From a virus (lineage: Duplodnaviria; Heunggongvirae; Uroviricota; Caudoviricetes): a DNA stretch of 12,621 bases. The translations under genes were made by a program, and so were the position numbers. The stretch spans positions 1 through 12,621 of the IMG/VR virus record IMGVR_UViG_2872180393_000003; one strand, given 5' to 3'. The number at the start of each line of letters is the position of its first letter. Positions within the stretch are counted from its first letter, which is position 1. Shown here piece after piece: positions 3,817-5,322 of the stretch. The notes beneath the pieces were generated by a model. It was given only the letters and a program-made list of their open reading frames with translations, searched no databases and was not told the origin of the DNA.

Positions 3817-5242
3817 TTTTTATGCGCCGCCCCATAGCATCGAGGCAGAGCAGGCGGTGATTGGTGGATTGCTTCTGGATGATGACAGCAGTGAGCGCGT
3901 CCAGAAGGTTCTTGCGATGCTGAAGCCTGACTCATTTTACAGCCGGCCACACAAAATCCTTTTCGAAGAAATAACCAGAATGCACCGGGAGCAAAAGCCA
4001 GTAGATGGCCTGACGCTTTTCGATGAACTGGAGCGTAAATCGTTAACGGCGTCTGTTGGCGGTTTTGCTTATATCGCTGAGATCGCAAAGAACACGCCAA
4101 GCGCCGCAAACATCGTTGCCTATGCAATGCAGGTTCGCGAAACCGCAATGGAACGCTACGCCATCAACCGCATGACTGAAGCGACGGAATTGCTCTATTC
4201 CCGCAACGGAATGACTGCAACGCAGAAGTACGAAGCTATTCAGGCGATTTTCACGCAACTGACAGACCATGCAAAAACCGGATCACGTCGCGGCCTTCGC
4301 TCATTTGGTGAGGTCATGGAAGACTGGGTTAGCGACCTTGAGAAGCGTTTTGACCCGTCAGGCGAACAACGAGGAATGAGCACAGGGATCCCATCGCTGG
4401 ACAGGATGCTGTCACCGAAAGGTCTGGTGAAAGGCTCTCTGTTTGTCATTGGCGCTCGCCCTAAGATGGGGAAAACGACGCTATACAGCCAGATGGCAAT
4501 CAACTGCGCAGTGCATGAGAAAAAGCCCGCTCTGATGTTCAGCCTTGAAATGCCAGGTGATCAGATACTGGAAAAACTGGTAGGGCAGAAGTCTGGTGTT
4601 AACCCGAATATTTTTTACCTTCCGGCGACAAATGACGCCGATGACGGCTATCAGGGTGATTACGATGGTGACTTCAACAGGGCGATCGAAACAGCCAATC
4701 GCTTGAGTGAAATCGACCTGCTTTACATCGACGACACGCCGGGATTATCTCTGGCTCAAATCGTCAGCGAAAGCCGTCGAATCAAGCGAGAAAAAGGATG
4801 TGTTGGCATGATTCTGGTCGATTACCTGACACTAATGACCGCTGAAAAGGCCGATCGCAACGACCTTGCCTACGGCATGATCACCAAAGGACTGAAGAAC
4901 CTTGCCAAAGAGCTTGATTGCGTTGTTGTGCTTCTGACGAAGCTTAACCGCGCACTGGAAAGCCGAACCAATAAACGCCCATTACCAAGTGACTCACGAG
5001 ATACAGGGCAGATTGAACAGGATTGCGATTATTGGGTGGGGATCCATCGTGAAGGTGCTTTTGATGACAGTGTTCCACCTGGTGAAACCGAACTAATCCT
5101 TCGTCTCAATCGTCATGGCAATACCGGCACGGTGTATTGCATTCAGGCAAATGGAGCTATTTATGACACAGACCAACAGTCTGCTGAAATGCGCCGCCGT
5201 GAACGCGAGGAACCGCAGTCCAAGAAGAAAGGAGGATTCTGA
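3806..5242 (+). CDS. DnaB-family replicative DNA helicase (phage P-position gene, P22 gene 12 type)
   Basis: 479 aa with a DnaB-like N-terminal region (EAEQAVIGGLL), Walker A GARPKMGKTT, then SLEM and later helicase motifs. A GAGGG Shine-Dalgarno precedes the ATG at 3806. Confidence 0.85.
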   Translation: MTDNFYAPPHSIEAEQAVIGGLLLDDDSSERVQKVLAMLKPDSFYSRPHKILFEEITRMHREQKPVDGLTLFDELERKSLTASVGGFAYIAEIAKNTPSAANIVAYAMQVRETAMERYAINRMTEATELLYSRNGMTATQKYEAIQAIFTQLTDHAKTGSRRGLRSFGEVMEDWVSDLEKRFDPSGEQRGMSTGIPSLDRMLSPKGLVKGSLFVIGARPKMGKTTLYSQMAINCAVHEKKPALMFSLEMPGDQILEKLVGQKSGVNPNIFYLPATNDADDGYQGDYDGDFNRAIETANRLSEIDLLYIDDTPGLSLAQIVSESRRIKREKGCVGMILVDYLTLMTAEKADRNDLAYGMITKGLKNLAKELDCVVVLLTKLNRALESRTNKRPLPSDSRDTGQIEQDCDYWVGIHREGAFDDSVPPGETELILRLNRHGNTGTVYCIQANGAIYDTDQQSAEMRRREREEPQSKKKGGF

Positions 5243-5322
5243 TGACCATCTACATCACTGAGCTAATAACAGGCCTGCTGGTAATCGCAGGCCTTTTTAT
5301 TTGGGGGAGAGGGAAGTCATGA
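5242..5322 (+). CDS. candidate 26-aa hydrophobic peptide (MTIYITELITGLLVIAGLFIWGRGKS), translationally coupled between helicase and ninB
   Basis: ATG at 5242-5244 overlaps the helicase stop (TGATG). It is preceded by AAGGAGG at 5229-5235 with a 6-nt spacer, and its stop overlaps the ninB ATG (ATGA). It was not in the supplied ORF track because of its size. Confidence 0.25.
   Translation: MTIYITELITGLLVIAGLFIWGRGKS
5272..5298 (+). terminator. rho-independent terminator-like hairpin (tR2 position)
   Basis: GGCCTGC - 8-nt loop - GCAGGCC followed by TTTTT, between the helicase and ninB, where lambda has tR2. It overlaps the small ORF above. Confidence 0.45.

What the first reader, a model, noticed from the sequence alone, without database searches (positions are those of the whole stretch)
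5225..5322. Possible 26-aa membrane peptide gene coupled between helicase and ninB, overlapping a tR2-like hairpin
A near-consensus RBS (AAGGAGG, 6-nt spacer) precedes an ATG overlapping the helicase stop. The ORF encodes a single hydrophobic helix and ends in an ATGA overlap with ninB. The same DNA folds into a 7-bp GC stem with T5 tail. Either a small protein is encoded here, or the RBS and open frame are by-products of a terminator and the helicase's lysine/glycine-rich tail.
Basis: seen in the sequence. Interest (0 to 1): 0.45.

Follow-up and report, generated by a model that had tools for sequence, protein, structure and literature searches.

The report
Known ninA ORF overlapping terminator tR2
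The 26-codon reading frame and the hairpin are the long-known ninA open reading frame and tR2 transcription terminator of lambda-like phages, sitting here in a broken-up prophage, so the finding is correct but ordinary.

Summary
An AAGGAGG Shine-Dalgarno (5229-5235) lies 6 nt before ATG 5242. The 26-codon ORF (5242-5322) shares a base with the helicase stop and overlaps the ninB start as ATGA. An 8-bp hairpin (5271-5294) plus T5AT3 lies inside it.

None of this is new. The peptide is identical to the lambda ren-ninB interval and the DNA differs by one synonymous base. Curated records of P22, Sf6, HK620 and 933W annotate the same DNA as ninA with terminator tR2 inside it. It matches PHROG 5907 and occurs in about 420 phage records and 38% of complete E. 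coli genomes.

The ORF is not a by-product of this helicase's tail. Seven unrelated upstream genes all supply a Shine-Dalgarno and a stop/start junction at the same ATG. Three alleles that diverge after codon 10 keep an open, hydrophobic frame. Published reporter work found the lambda ninA initiation site active and tR2 still about 90% efficient.

Selection on the exact peptide is only moderate, and null alleles exist. Peptide function is unknown. Verdict: already known, low interest.

The parts
3791..5242 (+). DnaB-type replicative helicase gene (lambdoid 'P'/gene 12 position). Its last codons carry the Shine-Dalgarno for ninA, and its TGA stop (5240-5242) shares base A5242 with the ninA ATG.
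   Evidence: ORF list. Pfam DnaB_C 5.6e-59 and DnaB 3.5e-31. phrog_19 8.2e-135.
5229..5235 (+). Shine-Dalgarno AAGGAGG, 6 nt upstream of the ninA ATG.
   Evidence: Sequence. The anti-SD duplex energy is -11.6 kcal/mol for this helicase context (computed on L001, which differs by one upstream base), against 1.8% of background positions at or below -8.
5242..5322 (+). ninA ORF, 26 codons plus stop: MTIYITELITGLLVIAGLFIWGRGKS. It has one hydrophobic span with a Glu at position 7 and a basic C-terminal tail.
   Evidence: The peptide is identical to the lambda ren-ninB interval. phrog_5907 E = 1.6e-19 over 26 of 27 positions. The same 81 nt is annotated NinA in mEp234. Kyte-Doolittle mean 2.04.
5271..5294 (+). 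tR2 stem-loop: AGGCCTGC, loop TGGTAATC, GCAGGCCT. It encodes codons 10 to 18 of ninA (T-G-L-L-V-I-A-G-L).
   Evidence: Terminator scan. Fold -15.7 kcal/mol, z = -3.2. Identical to lambda. Labelled tR2 in the Sf6 and HK620 records.
5295..5302 (+). Remainder of the tR2 U-tract (TTTTATTT; with the stem's closing T at 5294 the tract reads T5AT3). The inferred RNA 3' ends at U7/U8 fall at 5300/5301, inside ninA codon 20, about 19 nt before the ninA stop.
   Evidence: Sequence. U7/U8 are the two lambda tR2 release sites (bioRxiv 10.64898/2026.05.29.728758). Mapping them onto window coordinates is my inference.
5306..5313 (+). Shine-Dalgarno region of ninB (GGAGAGGG), lying inside the ninA tail codons.
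   Evidence: Sequence. This stretch is where the mosaic right-hand junctions fall.
5319..5759 (+). ninB (Orf-family recombination mediator). Its ATG overlaps the ninA stop as ATGA.
   Evidence: Pfam NinB 1.1e-54. phrog_72 1.5e-58.

Best explanation
Window 5242-5322 is the lambdoid 81-nt ninA/tR2 module, one stretch of DNA read in two ways.

As RNA, nt 30-61 of the module form the intrinsic terminator tR2. In lambda this terminator stops rightward transcription that lacks the N antitermination modification. This is known for the identical lambda sequence and inferred for this copy.

As mRNA, on transcripts that read through, a ribosome starts at the ATG that abuts or overlaps the stop of whatever gene lies upstream. 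It uses a Shine-Dalgarno embedded in that gene's last codons. It translates through and melts the hairpin and stops at the ATGA that overlaps the ninB start. In this way it hands translation on along the 'chain of interlinked genes' of the nin region.

The product is a 24-34 aa peptide. It has a conserved N-terminal decapeptide (MTIYITEL-I/V-T) and a hydrophobic span, so it probably inserts in the inner membrane. Translation is supported. Membrane insertion and any function of the peptide are inferred or unknown.

The first 10 codons also set a fixed spacer of about 28-30 nt between the upstream stop codon and the hairpin. In published reporter work that is about the distance beyond which a terminating ribosome no longer suppresses tR2. 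The link to the spacer is my inference.

Transcripts that do end at tR2 end inside ninA codon 20. Ribosomes that started on ninA then have no stop codon, which should trigger trans-translation and decay of the terminated RNA. This was proposed by Li et al. and is inferred here.

In this window the module sits in an IS600-scrambled, promoter-less prophage remnant. It is intact but probably little expressed.
For: Identity:
- The peptide is identical to lambda and the DNA differs by one synonymous base.
- The same DNA is annotated as ninA plus tR2 in P22, Sf6, HK620 and 933W.
- It matches phrog_5907 at E = 1.6e-19.

Terminator:
- The hairpin folds at -15.7 kcal/mol with z = -3.2.
- In lambda, transcription lacking N 'completely stops at tR2' (PMC7084815). 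Maximal termination efficiency in vivo is about 0.9 (PMC4824070).
- Two other hairpin alleles (HK97 type and L080/L342 type) keep a terminator at the same offset. Their compensatory U-A to C-G changes fall on third codon positions.

Translation:
- Seven unrelated upstream genes all end at -1 to +4 of the same ATG. They are ren, two DnaB-type helicases, a 633-aa primase-helicase-like protein and three small proteins.
- All seven carry an anti-SD match of -5.9 kcal/mol or better, against a background frequency of about 0.07-0.12. If the contexts are independent, the joint chance is roughly 1e-8 to 1e-7.
- The start codon is ATG in 300 of 301 modules, and the ORF is 24-34 aa in 295 of 301.
- Downstream, at least eight different genes follow. 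The ninA stop overlaps or lies within about 14 nt of their starts.
- Experiment: the natural 48 bp before lambda tR2 contains the NinA initiation site. It halved upstream reporter output. Mutating its RBS or its AUG restored output. Termination fell only about 10% when ninA was translated (PMC4824070).

Peptide:
- Three alleles that diverge after codon 10 keep an open, hydrophobic frame. These are HK97 gp56 (32 aa), the L080 type, and HK022_56/SH2026 gp28 (34 aa, no hairpin, Kyte-Doolittle 2.2).
- Non-synonymous changes in codons 2-10 are more conservative than random: mean BLOSUM62 +0.71 against -0.18, P = 0.006.
Against: - The excess of synonymous changes in codons 2-10 is not significant once both hairpin-anchored sets are pooled. 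There are 10 synonymous of 24 distinct substitutions against 7.1 expected, P = 0.07. The lambda-type set alone looked better.
- Null alleles exist with the terminator intact. They are a 1-nt deletion in codon 2 (5 loci, one haplotype), an E7 stop, an ATA start, and a W21 stop (5 loci).
- An HNH endonuclease cassette splits the ORF from the hairpin in HK022-type phages, and the hairpin is the part kept unchanged.
- Part of the hydrophobicity is forced. A T-tract encodes Leu/Phe/Ile in this frame, and the G+C stem encodes Gly/Leu/Ala.
- The nin region, ren-ninA-ninI, is removed by the viable nin5 deletion (PMC3349717).
- RefSeq lambda and PGAP E. coli annotations omit the ORF.
- No proteomic evidence or function for NinA was found in the searchable literature.
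- Nothing here measures expression in this IS-disrupted prophage.
Confidence: 0.8

Rival explanations
1. Terminator only. The DNA is conserved because it is tR2, and perhaps a recombination linker. The ORF may be translated because an ATG and a Shine-Dalgarno are present, but neither its translation nor its peptide is selected.
For: - Null alleles of the ORF persist with an intact hairpin.
- The HNH insertion keeps the hairpin but replaces the ORF's C-terminal two thirds.
- The synonymous excess gives P = 0.07 only.
- The hydrophobic residues are partly dictated by the T-tract and the G+C stem.
- The nin region is dispensable.
- RefSeq does not annotate the ORF.
Against: - This does not explain why seven unrelated upstream genes all carry a Shine-Dalgarno 6-8 nt before the ATG and end exactly at it.
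- It does not explain why the frame stays open and hydrophobic in an allele with no hairpin at all (HK022_56).
- It does not explain why replacements are conservative (P = 0.006).
Confidence: 0.3
2. Leader-peptide attenuator. Translation of ninA controls whether tR2 terminates, as in the trp or pyrBI leaders.
For: - The architecture resembles a leader: a short ORF starts 30 nt before an intrinsic terminator and runs through it.
- Ribosomes close to tR2 can repress it almost fully (PMC4824070).
- There is a weak Rfam Trp_leader hit at 5237-5300 (16.1 bits, E = 1.1).
Against: - With the native 48-nt leader, ninA translation lowered tR2 efficiency by only about 10% (PMC4824070).
- No alternative antiterminator pairing is predicted. 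The fold gives one dominant hairpin.
- The ORF has no run of regulatory codons.
- The Rfam hit is far below the gathering score of 41 bits.
- In lambda, read-through is provided by N rather than by translation.
Confidence: 0.07
3. Recombination 'boundary sequence'. The 81 nt are kept nearly identical because they serve as a short homology patch where lambdoid modules are exchanged.
For: - The Sf6 record labels exactly this interval 'bsq6; boundary sequence'.
- Homology between phages starts exactly at the ATG and ends 70-81 nt later, while both flanks are unrelated.
- The module shows 92-100% identity across Escherichia, Salmonella and Shigella phages.
Against: - This is an evolutionary consequence rather than a molecular function, and it is compatible with the main explanation.
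- Boundary sequences are absent at most mosaic joints (PMC3029335).
- Different hairpin alleles occupy the same slot.
Confidence: 0.4
4. Small hydrophobic toxin of the type I toxin-antitoxin kind (Hok, Ldr, Ibs, TisB-like).
For: The size (26 aa), the single hydrophobic helix and the basic C-terminus resemble such peptides.
Against: - No sigma-70-type promoter-like site was found on the opposite strand within 4500-6500.
- No Rfam antisense sRNA matches the region.
- The ORF sits inside an operon and is coupled to its neighbours, rather than being an autonomous locus.
- There is no Pfam or NCBIfam match.
Confidence: 0.03

Closest known systems
Lambda ninA ORF with terminator tR2 (lambda bases about 40567-40647, between ren and ninB)
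   Same: The 26-aa peptide is identical and 80 of 81 nt match. Hairpin, U-tract, ninB Shine-Dalgarno and the ATGA overlap with ninB are the same.
   Different: The upstream gene is a DnaB-type helicase joined as TGATG, instead of ren joined as ATGA. The SD is stronger (AAGGAGG against GGAG). Here there is no pR/nutR/N upstream, because IS600 has cut the operon.
ninA/tR2 of helicase-type lambdoid phages: mEp234, HK106, ECP1, Sf6 gene 45, HK620 ninA, P22 ninA
   Same: The helicase-ninA-ninB arrangement is the same. HK106 matches 100% over the 98-nt interval, and mEp234 and ECP1 match about 99% over 351 nt. The curated labels are NinA, tR2 and 'boundary sequence'.
   Different: P22-lineage copies differ at 6 of 81 nt (I9V and a tail change). 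Sf6 and HK620 have other genes after ninA, so the last 2-4 codons differ.
HK97 gp56 and HK022_56 (alternative alleles within phrog_5907)
   Same: They share the N-terminal decapeptide, the slot after the helicase and the hydrophobic C-terminal half. HK97 gp56 matches phrog_5907 at 6.9e-18.
   Different: HK97 uses a different terminator stem (GGGGCUAUUU/AGUAGCCCUU). HK022_56 has no hairpin and is followed by an HNH endonuclease gene, after which a hairpin-only tR2 copy follows.
Leader-peptide attenuators (trp, pyrBI)
   Same: A short ORF is read through an intrinsic terminator.
   Different: There is no antiterminator alternative and no regulatory codons. The measured effect of ninA translation on tR2 is small. 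It is not a member.

Membership tests
NinA (phrog_5907; lambda/P22/phage 21 ninA) | Sequence similarity to the named ninA ORFs | tested here: met
   phrog_5907 E = 1.6e-19 over 1-26 of 27 positions. The peptide is identical to the lambda ORF. The same 81 nt is annotated 'NinA protein, similar to CAB39987.1 NinA [Phage 21]' in mEp234.
NinA (phrog_5907; lambda/P22/phage 21 ninA) | Position as the first ORF of the nin region, between the replication/ren genes and ninB (or its replacement), with overlapping stop/start junctions | tested here: met
   The order is helicase, TGATG, ninA, ATGA, ninB. The same arrangement is seen in lambda, P22, Sf6, HK620, 933W and L.
NinA (phrog_5907; lambda/P22/phage 21 ninA) | The ORF is actually translated into a peptide | not testable with these tools
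   Support is indirect. An SD is present in 7 independent contexts. The reporter effect of the lambda NinA initiation site was abolished by RBS or AUG mutations (PMC4824070). The ribosome-profiling paper cited there (Liu et al. 2013) could not be read.
Lambda tR2 intrinsic terminator | G+C-rich stem-loop directly followed by a U-tract on the transcribed strand | tested here: met
   8-bp stem with 6 G-C pairs, 8-nt loop, T5AT3. -15.7 kcal/mol, z = -3.2.
Lambda tR2 intrinsic terminator | Sequence identity and position equivalent to lambda tR2 | tested here: met
   The hairpin and U-tract are identical to lambda L003 1097-1128. The Sf6 and HK620 records label the homologous bases tR2.
Lambda tR2 intrinsic terminator | Terminates E. 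coli RNA polymerase and is overridden by N-type antitermination | not testable with these tools
   This is known for the identical lambda sequence (PMC4824070; PMC7084815). It was not measured for this copy, and no N/nut region is present in the window.
Leader-peptide transcription attenuator | Mutually exclusive antiterminator/terminator structures controlled by ribosome position | tested here: not met
   A single dominant hairpin is predicted, with no competing helix. The Rfam Trp_leader hit scores 16.1 bits against a gathering score of 41. Published effect of ninA translation on tR2 is about 10%.
Type I toxin-antitoxin small hydrophobic toxin | Cis- or trans-encoded antisense sRNA and an autonomous locus | tested here: not met
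   No sigma-70-type promoter-like site on the minus strand within 4500-6500. No Rfam sRNA matches there. The ORF is embedded in an operon and coupled on both sides.

The most novel reading that the evidence does not exclude
NinA is a functional membrane micro-protein whose transmembrane core is encoded by the very bases that form the tR2 hairpin and U-tract. The same 81 nt would then be under three constraints: an RNA terminator, a coding sequence, and a ribosome spacer and coupler. Termination at tR2 would deliberately create a non-stop ninA message, marking un-antiterminated early transcripts for tmRNA-linked decay. That would tie lambdoid early-gene dosage to trans-translation.
Probability: 0.2. 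Interest if true: 0.5.

Novelty: already known. Interest (0 to 1): 0.15.

Why it matters
The practical points are about annotation and about how to read this window.

- **Annotation gap.** ninA is missing from RefSeq lambda and from PGAP annotations of E. coli, although the module is present in 38% of complete E. coli genomes. The gap between the replication gene and ninB is therefore not empty. It holds a strong terminator and a short, probably translated ORF.
- **Dual coding.** It is a clear natural example of a terminator hairpin and a hydrophobic peptide encoded by the same bases. It is also an ORF that becomes a non-stop message whenever its internal terminator fires.
- **Open question.** Whether the peptide does anything has been open since the ORF was named. 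The comparison here supports translation and a hydrophobic product, but it also shows that the peptide is dispensable in some prophages.

Tried and rejected
- **Whole-interval fold.** The 98-nt interval is not more stable than shuffles (z = -0.99). Only the local hairpin is.
- **Rfam.** Nothing reached a gathering score in the region. The Trp_leader hit at E = 1.1 was rejected as chance.
- **Pfam and NCBIfam.** No family matches the peptide or its two alternative alleles.
- **The search for homologous proteins.** Structure prediction was not attempted, because the stated minimum is 30 aa and the longer alleles are not window sequences.
- **tblastn against phages.** It found no relatives beyond the roughly 420 records already found by DNA, so there is no deeper family to use for a dN/dS test.
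- **Genome-collection scan with the hairpin.** Apart from Escherichia and Shimwellia contigs, the 20 hits were in unrelated taxa and look like lambda control-DNA contamination (some are lambda-sized 48.4-48.5 kb contigs), so they added little diversity.
- **E. coli K-12 DLP12.** The renD-emrE gap has no ninA/tR2 module, so K-12 small-protein data sets cannot speak to NinA.
- **Liu et al. 2013.** The lambda ribosome-profiling paper is not held in the library. A full-text search for the peptide string found nothing.
- **Synonymous excess.** The first test looked significant in the lambda-type set (8 of 14 in the ninA frame, P = 0.013; codons 2-8, 7 of 10, P = 0.004). It weakened to P = 0.07 after adding 111 HK97-type modules and matching transitions and transversions. 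I report the weaker figure.
- **Alignment artefact.** A first pooled run was contaminated by the misaligned 1-nt-deletion haplotype and was redone.
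Full report
**1. What is in the sequence**

Reading window 5000-5600 and listing ORFs confirms every element of the finding.
- The helicase ORF (3791-5242) has DnaB_C and DnaB domains. It ends ...AAG AAA GGA GGA TTC TGA.
- AAGGAGG lies at 5229-5235 and is followed by ATTCTG and then ATG at 5242.
- The TGA stop (5240-5242) and the ATG share base A5242.
- The ORF 5242-5322 encodes MTIYITELITGLLVIAGLFIWGRGKS. Its TGA overlaps the ninB ATG at 5319 as ATGA. ninB is confirmed by Pfam NinB at 1.1e-54.
- The terminator scan finds one site in 4500-6500: stem 5271-5294 with 8 pairs (6 G-C) and an 8-nt loop, followed by TTTTATTT, which with the stem's closing T reads T5AT3.
- The isolated hairpin folds at -15.7 kcal/mol with z = -3.2. 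The whole 98 nt is unremarkable.

**2. What it is**

The interval is the ninA/tR2 module of lambdoid phages.
- In lambda (NC_001416) the 81 nt between ren and ninB differ from the window at one synonymous base (ATC to ATT). They encode the same peptide and carry the same hairpin and U-tract.
- Curated records annotate the homologous bases as follows:
  - P22: 'ninA' plus 'terminator ... similar to phage lambda'.
  - Sf6: 'gene 45 protein, similar to phage 21 NinA' plus 'bsq6; boundary sequence' plus 'terminator; homology to phage lambda; tR2'.
  - HK620: 'ninA' plus 'tR2'.
  - 933W: 'orf4; homologous to ninA gene' plus 'rho-independent terminator'.
  - Also phage L and mEp234.
- The peptide matches PHROG 5907, function unknown, at E = 1.6e-19. 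It has no Pfam or NCBIfam model.
- Papers list ninA among the nin genes of lambda and P22 (PMC8022706; PMC3349717; PMC2629481).
- RefSeq lambda and PGAP-annotated E. coli leave the interval unannotated.
- The module occurs in 415 phage records at 92-100% identity. It occurs in 2053 of 5426 complete E. coli genomes, about 3000 copies in all.

**3. Is the ORF more than a by-product?**

I collected about 430 copies. They came from IMG/VR and metagenome scans anchored on the hairpin, so the N-terminal codons were free to vary, and from annotated phages.

*(a) Left junction.*
- Homology between phages begins exactly at the ATG.
- Seven unrelated genes precede it: ren, two different DnaB-type helicases, a 633-aa primase-helicase-like protein, and three proteins of 92-102 aa.
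- Each ends at -1 to +4 of the ATG, as ATGA, TGATG or TAAATG.
- Each carries a Shine-Dalgarno 6-8 nt upstream, with an anti-SD duplex of -5.9 to -11.6 kcal/mol. Only about 7-12% of random positions in the same loci reach -5.9.
- A terminator would not need this. ninB has its own SD inside the module.

*(b) Right junction.*
- At least eight different genes follow the module.
- The ninA frame stops overlapping or within about 14 nt of each of their starts, as ATGA, GTGA, TAAATG and similar. This gives peptides of 24-34 aa.
- The frame only has to stay open for a few more codons after the U-tract, so this is weaker evidence.

*(c) Alternative alleles.* After codon 10 three other sequences occupy the slot.
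- The HK97 type (gp56, 32 aa) has a different 10-bp stem and U6. The frame stays open, reading GAIYTVALFYW.
- The L080/L342 types change that stem by compensatory U-A to C-G substitutions. Both changes fall on synonymous third positions (GCT to GCC, GTA to GTG).
- The HK022/SH2026Stx1 type has no hairpin (z = -0.6). It still encodes a 34-aa peptide with a hydrophobic span, Kyte-Doolittle mean 2.2.

*(d) Substitutions in codons 2-10 of 398 hairpin-anchored copies.*
- There are 24 distinct changes, 10 of them synonymous. A randomisation matched for transitions and transversions expects 7.1 (P = 0.07).
- The 14 replacements are I to V/L/M/T, T to A/S/I, L to I, E to D and one stop. They are more conservative than random (mean BLOSUM62 +0.71 against -0.18, P = 0.006).
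- In the lambda-type subset alone the ninA frame had the highest synonymous fraction of the six frames.

*(e) Null alleles.*
- A 1-nt deletion in codon 2 occurs in five loci sharing one haplotype.
- There is one E7 stop, one ATA start and five W21 stops.
- A few homopolymer indels affect the tail.
- In these copies the hairpin sequence is unchanged.

*(f) HNH cassette.*
- In HK022-type phages an HNH endonuclease cassette is inserted exactly at nt 30.
- The unchanged hairpin reappears immediately after the HNH stop codon.

*Reading of (a) to (f).* Initiation at this ATG is selected. A short hydrophobic product is favoured. The exact peptide is only loosely constrained and can be lost.

**4. Experimental literature**

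Li et al. (PMC4824070) used lambda tR2 in a two-reporter operon.
- Maximal termination efficiency was about 0.9.
- A ribosome stopping within a few nt of the hairpin repressed termination almost completely. Efficiency rose to its maximum beyond about 30 nt, and their model uses a 27-nt reach.
[quoted passage not shown] For this they cite Kroger and Hobom 1982 and the lambda ribosome-profiling study of Liu et al. 2013.
- With that leader the upstream reporter fell to about half. The authors attribute this to non-stop translation on tR2-terminated RNA.
- Mutating the RBS or the AUG restored it. tR2 lost only about 10% efficiency to ninA translation.
- Without N, transcription that passes tR1 'completely stops at tR2' (PMC7084815).
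- Lambda tR2 releases RNA at U7/U8 (bioRxiv 10.64898/2026.05.29.728758). By my mapping these are window 5300/5301, inside ninA codon 20.

**5. Mechanism proposed**

- *Shown or known for the identical sequence:* an intrinsic terminator, and an active initiation site 30 nt upstream of it.
- *Inferred:*
  - On read-through transcripts the ribosome couples from the upstream gene into ninA, melts the hairpin and hands over to ninB at the ATGA.
  - The invariant 30-nt N-terminal coding stretch keeps the upstream stop codon 28-30 nt from the hairpin. That is about the distance at which terminating ribosomes stop interfering with tR2.
  - tR2-terminated RNAs are non-stop for ninA.
- *Unknown:* whether the hydrophobic peptide inserts in the membrane or does anything there.
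- The near-identity of the module across phages with unrelated flanks also fits its published label as a recombination 'boundary sequence'. That is compatible with the above.

**6. Local context**

The window is not an intact phage.
- Two 100%-identical IS600 copies in inverted orientation lie at about 1917-3181 and at 11422 to the window end. They bracket the segment.
- The O-like replication gene is truncated by the left copy.
- Late genes lie on the opposite strand: terminase fragments, a Rha-like regulator, Rz, endolysin, tRNA-Thr and tRNA-Asn, and a Q fragment.
- No complete E. coli genome matches more than 28% of the window in one place.
- No immunity region, pR or N/nut is present in the window.
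- The ninA/tR2 copy is therefore intact but sits in a decayed, probably poorly transcribed prophage.

**7. Verdict**

The feature is already known as ninA plus tR2. The function of the peptide remains unknown.

Noticed in passing
window 1981-3181 (+) and 11422-12621 (-): Two 100%-identical IS600 (IS3-family) copies lie in inverted orientation and bracket an 8.2-kb prophage segment. The left copy truncates the O-like replication gene. BLAST places its left end near 1917.
   Followed up: partly
window 7248-11438, minus strand: Late-region genes lie on the strand opposite to the nin genes. They are terminase small and large fragments, a Rha-like regulator, Rz spanin, endolysin, tRNA-Thr(TGT) and tRNA-Asn(GTT), and a Q antiterminator fragment. 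The prophage is rearranged and degraded, and no complete E. coli genome matches the whole window.
   Followed up: partly
window 7207-7283 (+): Full-length match to the Rfam family isrK, an Hfq-binding sRNA (70.6 bits against a gathering score of 50). It lies at the point where gene orientation flips.
   Followed up: no
L283, L297, L303, L305, L314, L335 (metagenome contigs): The exact 22-nt tR2 stem-loop GGCCTGCTGGTAATCGCAGGCC occurs in the same reading frame (GLLVIAG). It lies inside the N-terminal signal-peptide-like region of a gene starting MNKFFKLTALAGLLVIAGQSFAVDD, which by my recollection is prc after proQ. No T-tract follows. This shows the palindrome can be ordinary coding sequence for a hydrophobic segment.
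   Followed up: no
L006 811-1556; L008 1518-2300 (SH2026Stx1, HK022): An HNH endonuclease cassette is inserted exactly at nt 30 of ninA. It leaves a 34-aa hydrophobic ORF with no hairpin, and a hairpin-only tR2 copy that starts directly after the HNH stop codon. Published distance data suggest tR2 would be repressed by the terminating ribosome there.
   Followed up: partly
L360, L364, L400, L404, L423; L369; L211: Natural ninA variants. There is a 1-nt deletion in codon 2 (five loci, one haplotype) and an E7 stop, both with an intact HK97-type hairpin. There is also an in-frame 36-nt insertion between codon 10 and the lambda-type hairpin.
   Followed up: partly
L130, L143, L146 and other loci: Lambda-sized (48.4-48.5 kb) contigs, and short low-coverage contigs, carry the lambda ninA/tR2 sequence in assemblies labelled Pseudomonas, Shewanella, Oceanobacillus, Bradyrhizobium and others. 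This is most likely lambda control-DNA contamination of those assemblies.
   Followed up: no
L341 690-840 (E. coli K-12 DLP12, renD-emrE gap): The DLP12 ren homologue is followed by emrE with no ninA/tR2 module. In phage D2 the homologous ninA/tR2 match lies between an 'exclusion protein' and an SMR efflux transporter gene.
   Followed up: no
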